Shown: positions 17,897 to 25,596, counted from the first letter of the stretch. The stretch: 29,205 nt of DNA from a bacterium (GCA_003353795.1 PIVY01000046.1:1-29205); one strand, 5' to 3'. A program made the numbers and translations. Notes: generated by a model not told the origin, from the letters alone.

Positions 17897-18835
17897 ATGG
17901 ACAAGCCCGCCGATATCGCCCGCTCCCTGTCCCGCCGGGGATTCCTGTTCACCTCGACCCTCGCGGCTGCCGGCGCTCTCGGTGCCCGGACAGCCCATGG
18001 TCAGTGCGAGCTCACCACCACTGACATCCTCGGTCCGTTCCACGTGGCGGATGCTCCCATGCGGACCGTCCTCGCCTCGCCCGACGAGCCCGGCGCCCGT
18101 CTCTTCATCGACGGCCGCGTTTTCGCGCGCGACTGCGCCGACCCCGTTGCCGGCGCCGTGGTGGACGTGTGGCACGCCACGGACGACGGCTGCTACAGCG
18201 TGCACGAGGCATGTCCCGACGAGGACCCCTTCAATTGCCGAGGCCAGATGATCACCGACGCGGCCGGGGCCTTCGCCTTCGAGACCATCCTGCCGGGGCG
18301 GTATCTCAACGGCGCCACCTTCCGACCGCGGCATCTGCACGTGATCTTCAGTCCCCCCGACGGCGCGGCCCTCACCACGCAGATCTACTTCGCCGGCGAT
18401 CCCTACATCGACGAGGACCGCTGGGCCAGCGATCCCGACGCCGCGGCCCGGATCATCCCGCTCATCGAGGATGGGGAGGCGTTTCGCGGTCTGCTGGAGA
18501 TCAATCTGGACGTGGATACCACGACTGCTGTCCCTGGCGACGATCACGGACTGCCCACGGCGACGACCCTGCTGCAGAACTACCCCAATCCGTTCAATCC
18601 GATGACCACGCTCCGTTACCAGCTCCGCGTGGCGGCTGCAGTGAACCTGGACGTGTTCACGGCCGACGGCCGGTTTGTGCAGACCCTGGTGAGCGAGCAC
18701 CAATCGACCGGTTACCATTCGGTCCGATGGACGGGTCGCGATTCGGCCGGTCGCGAGGTGCCCAGTGGGGTCTATCTGGCGCGATTGACGGCCGGTAGCC
18801 TCGTCGAGACCCGGAAGCTGCATCTCATTCGATAG
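17897..18835 (+). CDS. Tat-signal intradiol ring-cleavage dioxygenase-like protein with a C-terminal FlgD-Ig/T9SS-type sorting domain
   Basis: Twin-arginine motif SRRGFLF. Intradiol dioxygenase signatures VVDVWHATDDGCYS and FRPRHLHV. C-terminal LLQNYPNPFNPMTTLRYQL...SGVYLARLTAGSLVETRKLHLIR. GGAGG 6 nt upstream of the ATG. Confidence 0.85.
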   Translation: MDKPADIARSLSRRGFLFTSTLAAAGALGARTAHGQCELTTTDILGPFHVADAPMRTVLASPDEPGARLFIDGRVFARDCADPVAGAVVDVWHATDDGCYSVHEACPDEDPFNCRGQMITDAAGAFAFETILPGRYLNGATFRPRHLHVIFSPPDGAALTTQIYFAGDPYIDEDRWASDPDAAARIIPLIEDGEAFRGLLEINLDVDTTTAVPGDDHGLPTATTLLQNYPNPFNPMTTLRYQLRVAAAVNLDVFTADGRFVQTLVSEHQSTGYHSVRWTGRDSAGREVPSGVYLARLTAGSLVETRKLHLIR

Positions 18836-19133: not shown

Positions 19134-19490
19134 ATGAAGGCAAACGATCTCGACGAGGTCCTGGGAATCCCCGCTCGGTTGGCCATCGTGGCGACCTTGA
19201 TGCCGGGACGGCAGCTGTCGTTCACCACACTTGGCGAGCAGACAGGAATCGCCGCCGGCAACCTGCACGTGCAGACGCGGAAACTCGTGGACGCGGGCTA
19301 CATCGTTGCCGAGCGGGGCAGGCAGGGTGGACGGGGCGTCACCCGATTCGAGATCACCGAACGCGGGAGGCTCCGATACCAGGAGCACGTGCGGAACCTG
19401 CGAGACGCCATCGAGGGACCTTTCGGGGTGGCTCGCGCGGCCACGGATTCCGGGCCGGTACGGCCGGGCGACCCCTCGAGGGTCTGGTAA
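19134..19490 (+). CDS. Winged-helix transcriptional regulator (HTH_34/ArsR-like wHTH)
   Basis: 118 aa. [48 protein letters not shown]...RFEITERGR matches the winged-helix DNA-binding (HTH_34) consensus. It is the first gene of the BMC operon. Confidence 0.8.
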
Positions 19491-19506
19491 TCATGCGAGG
19501 ATCGAG

Positions 19507-20805
19507 ATGATGATCGCCATTGGCGCAGATCACGGCGGATTCGAGCTCAAGCAGAAGCTGTTGAAGCACTTGCAGGGTCGGGGCCACCAGGTTCAGGACG
19601 TGGGGACCGGCTCCACCGATGCCGTCGACTACCCCGTCTTCGCCCGCAAGGTGGCCGAGGCCGTGGCCTCGGGAGCGGCCGAGCGAGGCATCATGATCGA
19701 CGGCGCCGGCATCGGCTCGTCCATGGTGGCCAACAAGGTGCCGGGCGTGCGCGCGGCCATGGCCTACGACGTGTCCAGCGCCCGCAACGGCCGCGAGCAC
19801 AACGACGCCAACCTGCTCACCCTGGGCGCGGGGCTCATCGGGGCCAACCTGGCCGCCCAGATCGTGGACGTGTTTCTGAATACAGTATGCAGCGAATCGC
19901 GCCACCAGCGCCGTGTGGCCATGATCGAGTCCGCCCCGACCGGCGGCGGCGCCACTCTCGGCATCTCGGACGCCGATTTCGCACGGGTCATCCAGCGGCT
20001 CGAATCCCTGACCGGCGATCGTGCTGGCCAGGCGGGTCCCTGCGTGGGCAGTTGCCCGGACACCGCCCGTCATTTCATCGGCCTCGGCGCCCGCCGCCTC
20101 ACCACTGGCCCCGGCAGCCCCGGCCGCATTCCCGAGGAACTGGCCCGCTACATCGACCACACCATTCTCAAGCCCGACGCCACCATCGAGATGATCGACA
20201 CCATCATCGCCGAGGCGCGCGAGCACGGTTTCCGTTCGGTCTGCGTGAACCCCTGCTGGGTGAAACGCGTGGCCGACGGCCTGCGCGGAACACGTGTGTT
20301 GACCTGCTCGGTGGTGGGATTTCCTCTCGGCGCCAGCGTCCCCGAGATGAAGGGCATGGAATCCCGCCGCGCCATTCGCGACGGGGCCAAGGAGATTGAC
20401 ATGGTCATCAACGTCGGTCGTCTCAAGGCCGGCGACGACGCCTACGTGCTGCGCGACATCATGGCCGTGACCGACGCCTGCCGCGACGGCAGTGCCGTGA
20501 GCAAGGTCATCATCGAGACCGCGCTGTTGACCGACGAGGAGAAGGTGCGCGCCTGTGAGCTGTCCAAGCGCGCGCGGGCCAACTTCGTGAAGACGTCCAC
20601 CGGATTCGCCTCGTCGGGCGCCACGGCCGAGGACATCGCGCTGATGGCCGGCATGGTGCATCCGGCCGGCATGGAAGTGAAGGCGTCCGGAGGCATCCGC
20701 ACCTTCGACGACGCCCGCCGCATGATCGACGCCGGCGCCACCCGTATCGGCGCCAGCGCCAGCATCGCCATCGTGGAAGAGGCCCAGAAGACTGCGAAAG
20801 TTTGA
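19507..20805 (+). CDS. Fusion enzyme: ribose-5-phosphate isomerase B (RpiB/LacAB) domain + linker + deoxyribose-phosphate aldolase (DeoC)
   Basis: I reset the start to ATGATG at 19507, with GAGGA 5 nt upstream and right after the regulator stop. The track ORF from 19231 overlaps the regulator out of frame. The RpiB domain runs [15 protein letters not shown]...GGG...RHQRRV. The DeoC domain has [23 protein letters not shown], the Schiff-base FVKTSTGF and VKASGGIRT. Confidence 0.9.
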
Positions 20806-20815
20806 GGGGACGAGC

Positions 20816-21436
20816 ATGGTCGACCTGAGAGCCTACTGCGTAATCGACAGCCTGCAGCCCCAGTTCGCCTCGTTCCAGGCGACCGTGGCCCAGGGGTTCC
20901 TGCCCAAGGTGGGGCAGGCCAGCCTGTTCGTGGAGATCGCACCGGGCATCGAGATCAACCGGGTCATGGACGTGGCGCTCAAATCCACGTCGGTGACACC
21001 GGGCATGCAGATCGTCGAGCGGCACTTCGGCATGCTCGAGGTGCACTCCGACAGTCAGGCCGAGGTACGGCAGGCGGGCATCTCCATCCTCGAGGCCCTT
21101 GAGCTCAAGGAGGAGGAGCGCCTCAAGCCGCGCATCGTCTCGGATCAGGTGGTGCGACATCTCGACGACCACCAGTGCATGCTCATCAACCGCATGCGCC
21201 ACGGCAACCTGATCCTCAGCGGCGAGACGCTCTTCATCCTGGAGTGCGAACCGGCCGCGTACGCCGCGCTGGCAGCCAACGAGGCCGAGAAGGCCGCGCA
21301 CATCAACATCCTCGAGGTCCGTTCGTTCGGAAGCTTCGGGCGCGTGTACATCGGCGGCGAGGAAAAAGACGTGGAAGTGGCCCGACCGGCGGCGGTCGCG
21401 GCCCTGGATTCCCTGAACGGTAGAACGATCAAGTAA
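20816..21436 (+). CDS. Tandem BMC-domain shell protein (BMC-T, pseudohexamer/trimer type)
   Basis: 206 aa. The second half ([28 protein letters not shown]...[23 protein letters not shown]) aligns position-by-position with the canonical BMC fold ([26 protein letters not shown]...GDVxAVxAA). The first half ([23 protein letters not shown]...[17 protein letters not shown]) is a diverged copy. GAGGGGA SD. Confidence 0.7.
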
Positions 21437-21450
21437 CAGGAGGAACGGCA

Positions 21451-21741
21451 ATGGCAGACGCTCTGGGTATGATCGAGTGCCGGTGTTTTTCGGCCACGGT
21501 GGAGGCCGCCGACGCCATGGTGAAGGCCGCTCGCGTGGATCTGGTGGGCTACGAGAAGACCGGTGGCGGCTACACCACCGCCATCGTGCGGGGCGACGTG
21601 GCCGCGGTGAAGGCCGCCTGCGAGGCCGGCCAGAACGCCGCCACCCGCGTGGGTGAAGTGGTGGCCGTGCACGTGATCGCGCGTCCACACTCCAACGTGG
21701 ACGCGGTGATCCCGTTGGGTCGCCAGACCGCCGAGGCGTAG
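21451..21741 (+). CDS. BMC-H hexameric shell protein (PduA/EutM/CcmK type)
   Basis: [57 protein letters not shown]...[17 protein letters not shown]. Confidence 0.95.
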
Positions 21742-21745
21742 ACCC

Positions 21746-22042
21746 ATGCTACTGGCACGGGTGCTGGGCCGGGTGGTGGCCACGCGCAAGGACGAGAAGC
21801 TCGAGGGCCTCAAGCTGCTCATGCTGGGCGTGGCGGGCCCCGACGGCAAGCTCACCGGCGCGAGCCTGGTCGCCGTCGATGCCGTGGGCGCGGGCGAGGG
21901 CGAGTACGTTCTCTATGCCGCGGGCTCGTCGGCGCGTCAGACCACCGTCACCGACCAGAAACCGGTGGACGCGGTCATCATGGCCATCGTGGACAGCTGG
22001 GACATCGAGGGCACCGAGAAGTACCGCAAGGGTAACGAGTGA
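21746..22042 (+). CDS. BMC-P pentameric vertex protein (EutN/CcmL/PduN family), copy 1
   Basis: MLLARVLGRVVATRKDEKLEGLKLLML...AVDAVGAGEGEYVLY. The stop overlaps the aldehyde dehydrogenase start (ATGA). Confidence 0.9.
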   Translation: MLLARVLGRVVATRKDEKLEGLKLLMLGVAGPDGKLTGASLVAVDAVGAGEGEYVLYAAGSSARQTTVTDQKPVDAVIMAIVDSWDIEGTEKYRKGNE

Positions 22043-23541
22043 TGGCGCGGCTCACCGACGCGCAGGTCGATCACATCGCCCGGGAACTCGCGGGGCGTCT
22101 CGGGGTTAGCGGTAAGTCGAACACATGGACCGACAAGACGATTACGGCGGCGATCAGGCCGGTCGCGGTGGCTTCTCCGGGCACCGCACCGGCCGCCGCT
22201 GTATCTGAACCCGGAAGCGGCGGCGTCTTCGCCACCATCGACGAGTGCGTGGCCGCTGCGCGAACCGCCTTCGAGGAACTGCGGGGCATGTCCCTGCAGA
22301 AACGCGCCGAGATCATCGCCGCCTACCGCGCCGCCATGCTGCGCGAGGCCGAGAGCCTGGCGCGCGAGGCGGTGCAGGAGACCCGGCTCGGTCGCGTCGA
22401 GCACAAGGTGATCAAGAACCGACTCGTGACCGAGGCCACGCCGGGCACCGAGATCCTGGTACCCAACGCCGCGAGCGGCGACGACGGACTGACGCTCATG
22501 GAGTGGGCGCCGTTCGGGGTGATCGGCGCCATCACGCCGACGACCAATCCCACCAGCACGATCATCTGCAACACCATCGGCATGGTGGCCGCGGGCAACA
22601 GCGTGGTCTTCAACGCGCACCCCAGCGCCAAGCGGTGTTCGCTGTCGACGGTGCGCCACCTGAACGCCGCCGCCGAGTCGGTGGGCGGGCCGCCCAACCT
22701 GGCGTGCGCGGTGGCCGAACCCACCATCGAGACCGCCACGGCGCTCATGCACCACAAGGGAATCAACCTGCTCGTGGTCACCGGCGGACCCGGCGTGGTG
22801 AAGGCCGCCATGAACAGCGGCAAGCGCGCGGTGTGCGCGGGTCCAGGCAATCCGCCGGTAGTGGTGGACGACACGGCCGATCTCGAGCGTGCGGGTCGTG
22901 ACATCGTGCATGGCGCCGGATTCGACAACAACGTCATCTGCGTGGACGAGAAGCAGGTATTCGTCACGGCGACGGCGGCGGATAAACTCCTCGATTCCAT
23001 GCGCGCGGCCGGGGCGTACGTCGCTTCATCCGATGAAGTCAGGCGCCTGGAGAAGCACATCTTCCAGGAGATCCGCGGCCCGCGCACCCACGGCGTGATC
23101 AACAAGCAGTTCGTGGGCAAGAACGCCGGGGTGATCCTGGCGGCGGCGGGCATCAAGACGGCCGGCGACGTTCCGCTCGTCGTGGCCGACGTGTCGGAGG
23201 ACCATCCGCTGGTCTGGAGCGAACAGCTCATGCCCGTGCTGCCGGTAGTGCGGGTGTCGCACGTGGCGCGGGGGATCAAGCTGGCGAAGGAGTCGGAGCA
23301 CGGGTTCGGGCATTCGGCCAGCATGCACTCCCACGACATCCAGGCCCTGAGCACCATGGCCCGCGAGATCAACACCAGCATCTTCGTCAAGAACGGGCCC
23401 ATCGTGGCGGGTCTCGCGGCCGGCGGCGAGGGCTTCACCAGCTTCACCATCGCCAGCCCCACCGGTGAGGGCATGACCTCGCCGCTCAGCTTCTCGCGGC
23501 AACGGCGGTGCGTGATGGTCGACCACTTCCGGATCGTGTAA
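22039..23541 (+). CDS. CoA-acylating aldehyde dehydrogenase (PduP/EutE-like) with an N-terminal encapsulation peptide and a Pro/Ala-rich linker
   Basis: 500 aa. N-terminal amphipathic helix LTDAQVDHIARELAGRL, then a ~45-aa A/P/G/S/T-rich linker. The ALDH core carries the catalytic Cys in GFDNNVICVDEKQ. The antisense ORFs 22323..23867- and 23026..24312- are shadows. Confidence 0.9.
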   Translation: MMARLTDAQVDHIARELAGRLGVSGKSNTWTDKTITAAIRPVAVASPGTAPAAAVSEPGSGGVFATIDECVAAARTAFEELRGMSLQKRAEIIAAYRAAMLREAESLAREAVQETRLGRVEHKVIKNRLVTEATPGTEILVPNAASGDDGLTLMEWAPFGVIGAITPTTNPTSTIICNTIGMVAAGNSVVFNAHPSAKRCSLSTVRHLNAAAESVGGPPNLACAVAEPTIETATALMHHKGINLLVVTGGPGVVKAAMNSGKRAVCAGPGNPPVVVDDTADLERAGRDIVHGAGFDNNVICVDEKQVFVTATAADKLLDSMRAAGAYVASSDEVRRLEKHIFQEIRGPRTHGVINKQFVGKNAGVILAAAGIKTAGDVPLVVADVSEDHPLVWSEQLMPVLPVVRVSHVARGIKLAKESEHGFGHSASMHSHDIQALSTMAREINTSIFVKNGPIVAGLAAGGEGFTSFTIASPTGEGMTSPLSFSRQRRCVMVDHFRIV

Positions 23542-23545
23542 CAGC

Positions 23546-24163
23546 ATGCAACAGGCACTGGCACTCCTCGAGTTCTCGGGCGCGGTGGCGGGCATCGCCG
23601 CCGTGGACCGCATGCTGAAAATGTCGCCCGTGGCGCTGCTGCGCTGCGGGACCGTGCATCCGGGTCGGTACCTGGTGCTGGTGGGCGGCTCGGTGGCGGC
23701 CACCGAGGAGGCGCACGCGGCAGCGGTGGCCGTGGGGTGCGAACTCGGCGCGTTGCATGACGAGGTCTGCCTGCCGGATCCGCATCCGCAACTGGCGGCC
23801 GCAGTCGGCGGAGATCGGCGCGCCGCCGAGGGTGAGGCGCTGGGCGTGATGGAGATCGCGACGTCACCGGGAATGCTTCGGGCGGTGGACGTCGCGCTCA
23901 AGGCGGTGCCGGTGGACCTGGTGGAGGTCCGGCTGGCCGATGATCTGGGCGGTCGCGCGCTGGCGGTGATCAGCGGCTCGCTCACCGACGTGCAGGAAGC
24001 GCTGGACATGGCTCGCGACCGTGGTGGCGAGACGGCCGGTTGGCTGGGTGGGACGGTGCTGCCGCGCCTCGACGACACCCTGCGCGACGTGCTGGGCGAG
24101 GGCACGAGTTTCCAGGCCTGCCGCTCGTGGGAACCCGCGGGCGCCGAGACGGTGGAGGAGTAG
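23546..24163 (+). CDS. Tandem BMC-domain shell protein, PduT-like (BMC-T)
   Basis: Two canonical BMC domains: ALALLEFSGAVAGIAAVDRMLKMSPVALL...GRYLVLVGGSVAATEEAHAAAV and ALGVMEIATSPGMLRAVDVALKAVPVDLVEV...GRALAVISGSLTDVQEALDMA. Confidence 0.85.
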   Translation: MQQALALLEFSGAVAGIAAVDRMLKMSPVALLRCGTVHPGRYLVLVGGSVAATEEAHAAAVAVGCELGALHDEVCLPDPHPQLAAAVGGDRRAAEGEALGVMEIATSPGMLRAVDVALKAVPVDLVEVRLADDLGGRALAVISGSLTDVQEALDMARDRGGETAGWLGGTVLPRLDDTLRDVLGEGTSFQACRSWEPAGAETVEE

Positions 24164-24166
24164 CGC

Positions 24167-24475
24167 ATGTTCCTTGGCCGCGTGATCGGAAGACTGGTGC
24201 CGGCGGTGGTGACCGCGGGCATGGAGGGGATCCCCCTCTTGTGGGTGCAGCCGCTGGACAAGTTCGGTGAGCCCGACGGGCTGGCATTCGTCTGCGCCGA
24301 TGGCACGCGCATGGCCGGGCCGGGCGAAACTGTCTACTGGGAAGCGAGTCGCGAGGCGGCGCTCACGCTGGAGCCGAGCTTCGTGCCGGTGGACCACGCG
24401 GTGGTGGGGATCGTGGACGACGTGCGGCTGGACGAGGTCGCCAAGCCGAAGCGGCGCAGGAGGAAGAAATCATGA
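24167..24475 (+). CDS. BMC-P pentameric vertex protein, copy 2, with a poly-basic C-terminal tail
   Basis: MFLGRVIGRLVPAVVTAGMEGIPLLWVQPLD... EutN/CcmL fold. Ends ...KPKRRRRKKS. Confidence 0.85.
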   Translation: MFLGRVIGRLVPAVVTAGMEGIPLLWVQPLDKFGEPDGLAFVCADGTRMAGPGETVYWEASREAALTLEPSFVPVDHAVVGIVDDVRLDEVAKPKRRRRKKS

Positions 24476-24735
24476 TCCTCGCGCGCGTCTGCGGCAGCCT
24501 CGTGTCGACCATCCATCACGACAGTATGAATGGGCGGAAGCTGCTGGTGCTCGACAAGCTTGATCAGGACGGTGAGCCGACTGGGGGGTATGTGATCGCC
24601 GTGGATACCGTGGGGGCCGGCGCCGGCGAGACCGTGATCATGCTGGACGAGGGGAACGGGGCGCGGCAGATCCTCGGCGAAGCGGATCTGCCGGTGCGGT
24701 CGGTGGTGGTGGGGATCGTGGATGAGGTGGGCTAG
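24472..24735 (+). CDS. BMC-P pentameric vertex protein, copy 3
   Basis: MILARVCGSLVSTIHHDSMNGRKLLVLDKLD...VIAVDTVGAGAGETVIMLDEG. Its start overlaps the copy-2 stop (ATGA). Confidence 0.85.
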   Translation: MILARVCGSLVSTIHHDSMNGRKLLVLDKLDQDGEPTGGYVIAVDTVGAGAGETVIMLDEGNGARQILGEADLPVRSVVVGIVDEVG

Positions 24736-24933: not shown

Positions 24934-25596
24934 CTAGTTCGCCGCCTGCGCTTCGGTCAGCCCGAACAGATCGAACGGCGGCTGCGCGAAGTTCTCGTGG
25001 AAGAGCACCGCGACCAGCACGACATAGCCGACGAAGGCCAGAATGATCACCGCCTGCACCGGCGACGTCTTCTGGATCTCCTGGCGCGATTTCACATCGC
25101 AAACCTCTCCCGGACAGTACTGGGCCTTGTCCCGGTAGATCAGCGAGTAGACCTTGCAGCCGATGCAGATCCCGAACGACGTCTCGAAGAAGAGGAAAAC
25201 CAGGCAGATCAGGCAGATCAATCCGGTAATGGGGCTGAACGAATTCACGACCACCTGCAGCGCGAACATGACCGTCGCCAGCACGATCCCGATGATCCAG
25301 GCAAACTTCTTCTGCTGGGCGCCGACGTATTCGGGGGTCTGGTTGCGCACGATCCAGCGACCCATGATCAGCGAGGGCGCATAGCGCGGATTGATCAGGA
25401 CCCGGATCAGGATGTCGGTCAGGAAGATGGTGACCGCGTACTTCAGCAGCGTGAAATCGCTCTTCATGATGGCCATCAGTATGGCGACGAACATCACGAC
25501 GAAGAGGATGCCGGCACCGGCGCGGATCTCGCGCTCGTTCAGGACGGGGATCTCGAAACCCGGTACCGTTTCGCCGAATTGAATGACCTTGCCCAT
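24934..25596 (-). CDS. Integral membrane protein, DUF4395-like (4 TM, conserved Cys pairs)
   Basis: 220 aa. N-terminus MGKVIQFGETVPGFEIPVLNEREIRAGAG, then hydrophobic helices. CIGC and CPGEVC motifs. GC somewhat lower than the window average. Confidence 0.65.
   Translation of the reverse strand: MGKVIQFGETVPGFEIPVLNEREIRAGAGILFVVMFVAILMAIMKSDFTLLKYAVTIFLTDILIRVLINPRYAPSLIMGRWIVRNQTPEYVGAQQKKFAWIIGIVLATVMFALQVVVNSFSPITGLICLICLVFLFFETSFGICIGCKVYSLIYRDKAQYCPGEVCDVKSRQEIQKTSPVQAVIILAFVGYVVLVAVLFHENFAQPPFDLFGLTEAQAAN

What the first reader, a model, noticed from the sequence alone, without database searches (positions are those of the whole stretch)
19933..20136. Encapsulation-peptide-like amphipathic helix in the linker between the RpiB and DeoC domains
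Between the end of the RpiB domain (...[12 protein letters not shown]) and the start of DeoC ([15 protein letters not shown]) lies a ~68-aa linker. It reads [66 protein letters not shown]. The central 18 residues (about nt 19960-20013) form a predicted amphipathic helix flanked by Gly/Pro-rich flexible segments. Its hydrophobic periodicity (F..VI..L..L) and DA-start mirror the N-terminal encapsulation peptide of the downstream aldehyde dehydrogenase (LTDAQVDHIARELAGRL). Encapsulation peptides are normally N- or C-terminal. An internal one would bring two sequential enzymes in as a single cargo unit, and the fusion has no terminal extension that could otherwise target it. The linker also holds a CxxxC (CVGSC) of unknown significance.
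Basis: inference. Interest (0 to 1): 0.65.

Follow-up and report, generated by a model that had tools for sequence, protein, structure and literature searches.

The report
Internal packaging helix in RpiB–DeoC fusion
The stretch between the two enzyme halves of this fused protein is a conserved helix that closely resembles the tags used to load enzymes into bacterial protein-shelled compartments, but the idea that it acts as an internal tag in this fusion family has already been published, so it is a sound but ordinary find.

Summary
Window 19507-20805 encodes a 432-aa RpiB–DeoC (RPI–DERA) fusion inside a sugar-phosphate-utilisation (SPU) microcompartment locus, and residues 141-209 join the two domains. 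This region is not a passive linker. It consists of a variable Ala/Gly spacer, a conserved helix (153-170), a variable Gly/His spacer and a highly conserved block (177-209).

The helix belongs to the same motif family, L[ST][DE]xxhxxIhxxhxxxLG, as the N-terminal encapsulation peptides of the aldehyde dehydrogenases in this locus and related loci, and of standalone SPU RPIs and DERAs. The fusions themselves have no terminal extension.

The conserved block is homologous to the N-terminal extension of standalone SPU DERAs. The CxxxC is the degenerate remnant of a Cx2Cx3Cx3C motif found there, and both Cys are lost in deeper fusion lineages.

So the "linker" is the ancestral DERA targeting extension, internalised by fusion to RPI. 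Packaging function is inferred, not shown.

It is not new. Dwyer et al. 2024 (PMC11585597) described this chimera and suggested its linker acts as an EP. A 2025 preprint (PMC12747264) reports that predicted EPs, some in inter-domain linkers, were needed for shell recruitment in an SPU-type archaeal compartment. The "two sequential enzymes" premise is doubtful, because SPU RPIs lack the catalytic Cys.

The parts
19134..19490 (+). Winged-helix transcription regulator (HTH_34). It occupies the DNA upstream of the fusion gene in another frame.
   Evidence: Pfam PF13601, E 7e-16. The same gene precedes the fusion in L001/L002.
19507..20805 (+). RpiB–DeoC (RPI–DERA) fusion gene, 432 aa.
   Evidence: More than 110 orthologous fusion clusters at 70-84% identity.
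19513..19926 (+). RpiB domain (residues 3-140). The catalytic Cys is replaced by Asp65 (nt 19699-19701); His98 is kept.
   Evidence: Pfam E 8e-53. D65 and H98 are invariant in A1. Agrees with PMC11585597.
19927..19962 (+). Spacer 1 (residues 141-152): Ala/Gly/Ser/Pro-rich and variable in length and sequence.
   Evidence: Column identity 0.42, length 12-50 aa in orthologs. pLDDT below 50.
19963..20016 (+). Conserved amphipathic helix [18 protein letters not shown] (residues 153-170); the internal EP-like element.
   Evidence: AF2 helix 155-169 and 155-168 at pLDDT 80-84. D157 and R160 invariant, G170 109/110. PSSM links it to the AldDH, RPI and DERA N-terminal EPs.
20017..20034 (+). Spacer 2 (residues 171-176): Gly/His-rich and variable. 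The window has Q175 where 105 of 110 orthologs have His.
20035..20133 (+). Conserved block [33 protein letters not shown] (residues 177-209), homologous to the C-terminal half of the N-terminal extension of standalone SPU DERAs.
   Evidence: Column identity 0.84. An HMM of 48 standalone extensions hits it at domain i-E 7.6e-6, 24.7 bits.
20041..20055 (+). CxxxC (C179-C183): aligns with Cys3 and Cys4 of the Cx2Cx3Cx3C motif of standalone SPU DERAs.
   Evidence: census and alignment. C183 is A/S in 11 of 110 orthologs. Both Cys are lost in P0124, P0125, L004, L005 and L007.
20134..20802 (+). DERA (DeoC) catalytic domain (residues 210-432) with D298, K362 and K392 conserved.
   Evidence: Pfam. 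PDB DERAs align mostly from 210-212 (some from 196-201) to about 425. Invariant columns.
20816..21436 (+). BMC-T shell protein (CsoS1D-like).
   Evidence: Pfam BMC. The ortholog in L001 carries CsoS1D_N.
21451..21741 (+). BMC-H shell protein.
   Evidence: Pfam PF00936, E 9e-29.
21746..22042 (+). BMC-P vertex protein 1.
   Evidence: Pfam PF03319, E 3.5e-28.
22039..23541 (+). Aldehyde dehydrogenase, the second cargo enzyme.
   Evidence: Pfam Aldedh at residues 65-457.
22048..22104 (+). N-terminal EP of the AldDH (RLTDAQVDHIARELAGRLG), in the same motif family as the internal helix.
   Evidence: Rank 6 of 36,813; p = 0.0044. The equivalent motif scores p < 0.05 in 85% of 40 related loci.
23546..24163 (+). 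BMC-T shell protein (two BMC domains).
   Evidence: Pfam, 2 stretches, E 2e-27.
24167..24475 (+). BMC-P vertex protein 2.
   Evidence: Pfam PF03319, E 6.7e-15.
24472..24735 (+). BMC-P vertex protein 3.
   Evidence: Pfam PF03319, E 9e-27.

Best explanation
Residues 141-209 of the fusion are the N-terminal targeting extension that all SPU-type DERAs carry. The extension became internal when the adjacent upstream rpi gene was fused in frame and lost its own N-terminal encapsulation peptide.

The helix (153-170) sits between two flexible spacers of variable length. It most likely acts as an encapsulation peptide. Its hydrophobic face (F158, V161, I162, L165, L168) and its conserved D157/R160 charge pair would let it bundle with the similar helix on the aldehyde dehydrogenase, or dock on the luminal face of the shell. 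Either way, both enzyme domains would be loaded as one cargo unit.

The conserved block after the helix (177-209) is the rest of that ancestral extension. Its CxxxC is what remains of a four-Cys motif.

Shown here: the domain boundaries, conservation, helix prediction, motif kinship with other SPU cargo EPs, homology of the block to standalone DERA extensions, absence of terminal extensions, and the microcompartment context.

Inferred: the actual packaging or condensation role, and the order of evolutionary events.
For: (1) The locus is a compact SPU-type BMC operon with only two cargo genes, the fusion and AldDH. The other genes are a regulator, BMC-T, BMC-H, BMC-P, BMC-T, BMC-P and BMC-P. 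The same order occurs in L001/L002. Shell genes lie within 7 kb in 25 of 28 fusion loci.

(2) The linker has a conserved helix flanked by spacers of variable length, which is the classic EP layout. AF2 predicts the helix, at pLDDT 80-84 in isolation.

(3) A PSSM of the internal helix finds the AldDH N-terminus at p < 0.05 in 85% and p < 0.01 in 65% of 40 loci. It finds standalone DERA N-termini in 48% and standalone RPI N-termini in 29%. It finds the N-termini of the fusions in 0%.

(4) Most fusions have a stop codon 3-24 aa upstream of the RpiB domain, so they have no N-terminal EP. Standalone SPU RPIs do have one.

(5) Fusions from eight loci (Thermoanaerobaculia, other Acidobacteriota, Verrucomicrobiota, Lentisphaerae) keep only the helix plus a short spacer and lack block 177-209. 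The helix is therefore the element most widely kept: a helix-motif match at p < 0.05 in 90% of the fusion linkers scored.

(6) The HMM of standalone DERA extensions hits the window's block at i-E 7.6e-6, while the best non-DERA ORF scores E = 0.03.

(7) Literature. All SPU DERAs have an amphipathic N-terminal extension whose deletion makes the protein soluble. [quoted passage not shown] EPs predicted at termini or in linkers between domains in four enzymes (including the fusions Flav+DERA and CS+PTAC) were required for shell recruitment in an SPU-type archaeal compartment (PMC12747264). Metabolosome EPs carry opposite charges one helical turn apart and self-condense (PMC12339742).
Against: There is no experimental evidence for this protein or for any bacterial RPI–DERA fusion.

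The hydrophobic moment of the window's helix (0.36) is no higher than shuffles give (p = 0.26) and is lower than that of several helices in the TIM barrel.

In the full-length AF2 model the helix has only about pLDDT 56.

Local HMM search with the helix gave only weak hits (7 bits or less) outside the fusions. Similarity to model EPs (EutC, PduP and others, recalled from memory) is modest (p 0.007-0.17).

An internal position departs from the textbook definition of an EP as a terminal helix.

Confidence: 0.7

Rival explanations
1. The helix and the conserved block are a structural or oligomerisation element of the RPI–DERA enzyme itself. They would dock the two domains or build a higher oligomer, and packaging would occur through another surface or by piggy-backing on AldDH.
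For: [quoted passage not shown] Block 177-209 is as conserved as the catalytic domains (0.84). PMC12747264 reports RPI binding shells without a predicted EP.
Against: RPI still binds the N-terminally truncated DERA, so the extension is not needed for the complex. AF2 does not pack the helix or the block against either domain; the whole linker scores below pLDDT 60 in the full-length model. The helix motif recurs at the free N-termini of AldDH, RPI and DERA. Variable-length spacers argue for a tethered rather than docked element.
Confidence: 0.15
2. The functional core of the linker is the Cys-containing block, acting as a metal-binding or redox-sensing site. The helix would be secondary.
For: Of 53 standalone SPU DERAs, 30 have exactly four Cys in this block, most often as Cx2Cx3Cx3C. 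One fusion has a ferredoxin-like CxxCxxCxxxCP. Close orthologs of the window keep Hx3Cx3C.
Against: The window has only two of the four Cys, and Gln where orthologs have His. C183 is A/S in 11 of 110 orthologs. Both Cys are absent in several fusion lineages, and the whole block is absent in eight fusion loci that still keep the helix.
Confidence: 0.1
3. The region is a passive flexible linker with no function of its own, and the resemblance to an EP is chance.
For: The hydrophobic moment is not above shuffles. AF2 confidence is low in the full-length model.
Against: D157 and R160 are invariant and G170 near-invariant, and helix conservation is 0.74 over 110 orthologs while neighbouring spacers drift in length and sequence. 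The motif is retained in fusions from many phyla (81% at p < 0.01).
Confidence: 0.03

Closest known systems
SPU3 RPI–DERA chimera of sugar-phosphate-utilising microcompartments (Dwyer et al. 2024, Commun Biol, PMC11585597)
   Same: The domain order is the same (RPI then DERA), as is the Cys-to-Asp change in RPI. The region between the domains corresponds to the DERA N-terminal extension. The BMC context matches (AldDH, BMC-H, BMC-T including a CsoS1D-like one, three BMC-P). The authors already suggest that the region may act as an EP.
   Different: This is a different organism; the nearest genome locus is a Krumholzibacteriota MAG at 77% identity (L003). In this clade the Cys-rich part is reduced to CxxxC and the window also lacks the preceding His. 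The paper does not report the motif kinship with the AldDH/RPI EPs or the loss of the RPI EP in fusions.
N-terminal extension of standalone SPU DERAs (about 70 aa: amphipathic helix plus a further element; PMC11585597)
   Same: The order is the same: helix, spacer, Cys-rich/GAxR block, DERA core. The block is detectably homologous (i-E 7.6e-6).
   Different: It is N-terminal there and internal here. The helix there is longer and of the 'LVExITREVL' flavour. Four Cys is the commonest count there (30 of 53), two here.
Classical metabolosome encapsulation peptides (PduP, PduD, EutC and others; Aussignargues et al. 2015, PMC4594438; Trettel et al. 2025, PMC12339742)
   Same: A helix of about 18 residues with a hydrophobic face, opposite charges about one turn apart, a flexible and poorly conserved tether, absence from non-BMC homologs, and location in a BMC operon.
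   Different: Those are terminal and this one is internal, tethered on both sides. Sequence similarity to the model EPs is only modest (those sequences were recalled from memory).
Inter-domain EPs in Hodarchaeales SPU-type archaeal microcompartments (bioRxiv 2025, PMC12747264)
   Same: EPs are predicted at termini or in linkers between two domains of core enzymes, among them a DERA fusion (Flav+DERA). EP-deletion variants of the EP-bearing enzymes were not recruited to shells.
   Different: The N-terminal partner there is a flavoprotein domain rather than RpiB, and the host is archaeal. I could not compare sequences.

Membership tests
BMC encapsulation peptide | Short (about 15-20 aa) alpha-helix | tested here: met
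   AF2 helix 155-169 and 155-168 at pLDDT 80-84 in isolation.
BMC encapsulation peptide | Amphipathic, with a contiguous hydrophobic face | tested here: inconclusive
   Residues 158, 161, 162, 165, 168 and 169 lie in one 120-degree arc. However, the Eisenberg moment of 0.36 is not above shuffles (p = 0.26).
BMC encapsulation peptide | Joined to the catalytic domain by a poorly conserved flexible linker | tested here: met
   Spacer 1 is 12-50 aa with identity 0.42. Spacer 2 is 4-22 aa with identity 0.55. pLDDT is below 50.
BMC encapsulation peptide | Located at the N- or C-terminus of the cargo protein | tested here: not met
   The helix is internal, at residues 153-170 of 432. No terminal extension exists.
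BMC encapsulation peptide | Extension absent from homologs not associated with BMCs | tested here: met
   A profile of residues 150-212 found 8 hits among 1.84 billion representatives. Seven are RPI–DERA fusions or fragments of them; the eighth (P0127) is an unrelated repeat protein. No solved RpiB or DERA covers residues 142-195.
BMC encapsulation peptide | Oppositely charged residues about one helical turn apart (metabolosome EPs, PMC12339742) | tested here: met
   D157 and R160 are invariant. E156/R160 and R160/E163 appear in the ortholog consensus.
BMC encapsulation peptide | Necessary or sufficient for packaging; binds the shell or co-condenses with other EPs | not testable with these tools
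   Needs GFP-fusion, deletion and co-purification experiments.
SPU microcompartment locus with RPI–DERA chimera (SPU3) | PF02502 and PF01791 in one ORF, RPI first | tested here: met
SPU microcompartment locus with RPI–DERA chimera (SPU3) | Acylating AldDH with an N-terminal EP, plus BMC-H, BMC-P and BMC-T genes in the same operon | tested here: met
SPU microcompartment locus with RPI–DERA chimera (SPU3) | RPI catalytic Cys replaced by Asp, His retained; DERA catalytic Asp/Lys/Lys retained | tested here: met
   D65, H98, D298, K362 and K392 are invariant in A1, as reported in PMC11585597.
SPU microcompartment locus with RPI–DERA chimera (SPU3) | Formal subtype assignment by the BMC Caller shell-protein HMMs | not tested
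The subtype is inferred from the fusion and the CsoS1D-like BMC-T.
SPU-DERA N-terminal extension | Helix followed by a Cys-rich/GAxR block directly upstream of the IDHT start of the DERA core | tested here: met
   Alignment and HMM, i-E 7.6e-6. The Cys motif is degenerate: 2 of 4 Cys.

The most novel reading that the evidence does not exclude
The fusion may be more than a cargo protein with an oddly placed tag. It may be the nucleating scaffold of this minimal microcompartment. An RPI half lacking the catalytic Cys (RpiB crystallises as dimers or tetramers) and a dimeric DERA half would be joined by a doubly tethered sticker helix that pairs with the AldDH helix. That would form a multivalent network, like CcmM in carboxysomes, that condenses the core before the shell closes. 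In relatives, a four-Cys site next to the helix would add metal or redox control of that assembly.
Probability: 0.25. Interest if true: 0.55.

Novelty: already known. Interest (0 to 1): 0.3.

Why it matters
If the internal helix works, it shows that an encapsulation peptide need not be terminal. One helix tethered on both sides could load two enzyme domains at a fixed 1:1 ratio, which is useful for engineering synthetic microcompartments. It would also explain how a two-cargo SPU compartment assembles. Both points are already proposed in the literature, and partly tested for a different DERA fusion, so this window adds a further example and some comparative detail rather than a new principle.

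Tried and rejected
(1) Hydrophobic-moment statistics. The helix does not stand out from shuffles or from ordinary barrel helices, so I did not use this as evidence.

(2) Profile search with residues 150-212 against 1.84 billion representatives, hoping to find the module at the N-terminus of standalone DERAs or on other cargo proteins. It returned only 8 hits, seven of them fusions or fragments of them plus one repeat protein. Homology to standalone extensions became visible only with an HMM built from those extensions themselves.

(3) Local hmmsearch with the 22-residue helix model over six-frame ORFs of 82 loci. Non-self hits reached 7 bits at most, which is uninformative. The top one was an RPI N-terminal EP. 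I replaced this with an ungapped PSSM and an empirical null.

(4) The full-length AF2 model gave no confident packing of the linker, so it says nothing about docking.

(5) Antisense and off-frame ORFs across the region (19354-20817 minus strand, 19764-20063 minus strand, 19887-20399 plus strand) have no Pfam match. I treat them as high-GC shadows.

(6) The upstream in-frame 92 codons (19231-19506) were considered as a hidden N-terminal extension and rejected. A wHTH gene in another frame covers that DNA, and the orthologs start at the same residue as the window protein.

(7) The listing of cluster members gave no name or accession for the protein. The supplementary tables of PMC11585597 were not available.

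Full report
WHAT IS THERE

The + strand ORF 19507-20805 encodes a 432-aa protein. Pfam places LacAB_rpiB at residues 3-140 (E 8e-53) and DeoC at 215-416 (E 3e-14). Solved RpiB structures align to residues 1-140. Solved DERAs align from about 196-212 onward, most from 210-212, and nothing solved covers 142-195.

The gene sits in a compact bacterial microcompartment operon. In order it holds:
- a wHTH regulator (19134-19490)
- the fusion
- a CsoS1D-like BMC-T
- BMC-H
- BMC-P
- an aldehyde dehydrogenase (22039-23541)
- a second BMC-T
- two more BMC-P

The fusion and the AldDH are the only cargo enzymes. This is the sugar-phosphate-utilisation (SPU) type of locus described by Axen 2014, Sutter 2021 and Dwyer 2024. 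Antisense and off-frame ORFs over the region have no family match.

CHECKING THE OBSERVATION

The quoted sequence is right, and the coordinates are one codon off at each end. More than 110 orthologous full-length fusions (70-84% identity) were found. Aligning them divides the "linker" into four parts:
- Spacer 1 (141-152): Ala/Gly/Ser/Pro-rich, 12-50 aa long in orthologs, column identity 0.42.
- The helix (153-170): identity 0.74, consensus LSEEDLARIVERLQGLLG, with D157 and R160 invariant and G170 conserved in 109 of 110.
- Spacer 2 (171-176): Gly/His-rich, 4-22 aa, identity 0.55.
- A block (177-209), [33 protein letters not shown]: identity 0.84, as conserved as the enzyme domains (0.88 and 0.90).

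AlphaFold2 with a 63-sequence alignment models both enzyme domains confidently. In that model the linker scores below pLDDT 60, with a helix at 155-169. Modelled alone, the helix spans 155-168 at pLDDT 80-84, and a second, low-confidence helix spans 185-197.

The hydrophobic residues of the first helix fall in one 120-degree arc. However, the Eisenberg moment (0.36) is no better than shuffles give (p = 0.26) and is lower than several barrel helices. Amphipathicity alone is therefore not evidence.

The fusion has no terminal extension. The regulator gene covers the upstream DNA in another frame, 105 of 110 orthologs start at the same residue as the window protein (two residues before the RpiB domain), and C-terminal tails are about 15-18 aa.

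WHAT THE HELIX IS RELATED TO

I fetched 80 loci from species-representative genomes, which with L001/L002 makes 82. I parsed 82 sequences, the 80 genome loci found, L001 and the window; the L002 file was not yet available. By my parse, 28 of these are single-ORF fusions (the window makes 29). They come from many phyla, including Woeseia, Thermoanaerobaculia, Neomarinimicrobiota, Lentisphaeria, Planctomycetaceae, Ignavibacteria, Elusimicrobia, Calditrichia, Verrucomicrobiota, Terriglobia and Polyangiaceae. L003 (Krumholzibacteriota) also looks like a fusion, but my motif filter missed it. The remaining loci have adjacent but separate rpi and dera genes.

I built a 19-position PSSM from the close orthologs' helices and scored it against an empirical null of random 70-aa six-frame windows:

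| Region scored | p < 0.05 | p < 0.01 |
|---|---|---|
| AldDH N-terminus (40 loci) | 85% | 65% |
| Standalone DERA N-terminus | 48% | 13% |
| Standalone RPI N-terminus | 29% | 13% |
| N-terminus of the fusions | 0% | 0% |

The window's own AldDH N-terminus, RLTDAQVDHIARELAGRLG, scores p = 0.0044. The matched peptides share one pattern, L[ST][DE]x[DEQ]hxxIhxxhxxxLG. Examples are RLTDQQVASIARELAGRLG (AldDH), PLSDQDIHEIVSRVVRQTL (RPI) and NLDEATLERIIEQITRQVL (DERA).

Within the window, the AldDH N-terminus ranks 6th of 36,813 six-frame positions with a PSSM that excludes the window's own sequence.

Most fusions have a stop codon 3-24 aa upstream of the RpiB domain. Standalone SPU RPIs carry an N-terminal EP, often with a further module. 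The fusions have thus lost the RPI tag and keep only the internal helix. Shell genes lie within 7 kb in 25 of 28 fusion loci.

WHAT THE REST OF THE LINKER IS

Standalone SPU DERAs have an N-terminal extension with four parts in order: an amphipathic helix, a Cys-rich motif, a 'hhxxGAxRh' segment, and about 15 aa leading to the IDHT start of the DERA core.

- In 30 of 53 standalone DERAs there are exactly four Cys, most often as Cx2Cx3Cx3C. Examples are CPGCDGHCAESCPQK and CADCHGSCAAHCSDK.
- The window's [21 protein letters not shown] aligns with the tail of this motif. C179 and C183 correspond to Cys3 and Cys4.
- The His found four residues before C179 in 105 of 110 close orthologs sits at the Cys2 position. 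The window has Gln there.
- An HMM built only from 48 standalone extensions hits the window's block at domain i-E 7.6e-6 (24.7 bits, database of 8,141 ORFs). The best non-DERA ORF scores E = 0.03.

The reverse search failed. A profile of window residues 150-212 against 1.84 billion representatives found only fusions, their fragments and one repeat protein.

The Cys are not essential to the fusion family. C183 is A/S in 11 of 110 orthologs. Both Cys are absent in P0124, P0125, L004, L005 and L007. Eight fusion loci lack the whole block and keep only the helix and a short spacer. The helix is the element most widely kept, although a few fusions (L029, L031, L034) do not score with this PSSM.

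MECHANISM

The best-supported reading has three steps. First, the adjacent rpi and dera genes fused. Second, the DERA N-terminal targeting extension became internal. Third, the RPI EP was lost.

The doubly tethered helix would then act as the encapsulation peptide for the whole protein. It could do so by bundling with the AldDH helix, by docking on the shell, or both. Published work supports each mode. EPs self- and co-condense through a hydrophobic face and a charge pair one turn apart (PMC12339742). PduL's EP is modelled, with mutational support, to bind the groove between tessellating shell tiles (PMC11157265).

The domain boundaries, conservation, motif kinship, homology and gene context are shown here. 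The packaging role itself is inferred. I put it at 0.7.

Three rivals remain:
- A purely structural or oligomerisation role (0.15). The truncated DERA still binds RPI, and AF2 shows no docking.
- A metal or redox module as the main function (0.1). The motif is degenerate here and dispensable in relatives.
- A passive linker (0.03). The conservation pattern refutes this.

RPI and DERA are not known to be sequential. The RPI half has Asp65 in place of the catalytic Cys, as in all SPU RPIs. The characterised SPU6 RPI had little or no activity, and its authors suggest a packaging role instead.

COMPARISON WITH WHAT IS KNOWN

Dwyer et al. 2024 (PMC11585597) report the following:
- The RPI–DERA fusion occurs in 20 SPU3 loci.
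- Its apparent linker is the DERA N-terminal element.
- All SPU DERAs have this extension.
- Deleting the extension makes the protein soluble.

[quoted passage not shown] It reports that EP-deletion variants are not recruited to shells.

The central idea of the finding is therefore already published and partly tested for a different DERA fusion. This analysis adds four points:
- the quantitative motif link between the internal helix and the AldDH, RPI and DERA EPs
- the loss of the RPI EP in fusions
- the demonstration that the helix, not the block, is the element most widely kept
- the reading of the CxxxC as a remnant of a Cx2Cx3Cx3C motif, which the main text of the 2024 paper does not mention

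VERDICT

Novelty: already known. Interest: 0.3.

Noticed in passing
Loci L025-L082 (pre-DERA regions); window 20035-20100 is the degenerate counterpart: Standalone SPU DERAs carry a Cys-rich motif between the EP helix and the DERA core. Thirty of 53 have exactly four Cys, mostly as Cx2Cx3Cx3C. The fusion in L034 has a ferredoxin-like CxxCxxCxxxCP, and L013, L019 and L021 have 5-6 Cys. This could be a metal, Fe-S or disulfide site. The main text of PMC11585597 does not mention it.
   Followed up: partly
window 20704-20769 compared with 20035-20100: The HMM of standalone DERA N-terminal extensions also hits the DERA domain's own C-terminal alpha/beta unit ([22 protein letters not shown]; 18 bits, i-E 8.6e-4). 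Compare [17 protein letters not shown] in the linker. This may be an old partial duplication, or just a generic helix-Gly-strand motif, since RPI's KVARQVASGATRFGVIVDG is also hit in L008 and L011.
   Followed up: partly
window 20029-20031 (Q175): In 105 of 110 close orthologs a His lies four residues before C179 (H[GA]GPCVG[ST]CP). The window has Gln, so any three-ligand H/C/C site is further degraded here.
   Followed up: partly
window 19699-19701 (D65): The RpiB catalytic Cys (E. coli C66) is Asp in this protein and in all 63 aligned fusions. H98 is kept. This matches the report that SPU RPIs lack the catalytic Cys and may be non-catalytic.
   Followed up: yes
Loci L026-L028, L043, L057, L061-L065, L069, L074, L076, L077, L080, L081 (upstream of the RpiB domain); also the Terriglobia fusions L029-L031: Many standalone SPU RPIs carry, after their N-terminal EP, a conserved module of about 40 aa (…ITEDDV…G..L.I…A.VTPLA.D.A.ER.I.L…). 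The Terriglobia fusions keep this module but not an N-terminal helix. Its identity was not determined.
   Followed up: no
P0128 (147-aa fragment of a divergent fusion): In place of the CxxxC this fragment has HACTEACGFCQSCAEINP, a denser Cys cluster (CxxxCxxCxxC), before the conserved NPxxVRxFIxLGAxR.
   Followed up: no
P0127 (553 aa, from the profile search): An unrelated protein with six tandem repeats of about 80 aa. Each repeat starts with an EP-like helix (LSEAALDRVLNHLESSVGRKL). It scored E 1.8e-4 against the linker profile through the helix positions only. This may be chance or a multivalent helix scaffold.
   Followed up: no
window 24167-24735: Two further BMC-P genes follow the second BMC-T, the last one (24472-24735) overlapping the stop of the previous gene. 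That makes three BMC-P paralogs, as in the L001 locus.
   Followed up: yes
window 17897-18835 (+) and 24934-25596 (-): The operon is flanked by two genes. One is a dioxygenase-like protein with a FlgD-Ig domain and a weak T9SS sorting-tail match. The other is a DUF4395 membrane protein. No link to the compartment is evident.
   Followed up: no
L003 (Candidatus Krumholzibacteriota, 77% identity): This is the closest genome-collection relative of the window's fusion. My motif filter labelled it 'separate', but its upstream sequence (…RRVAMIVDSG…) shows it is a fusion whose RpiB motif the filter missed. The count of 28 fusion loci is therefore a slight undercount.
   Followed up: partly
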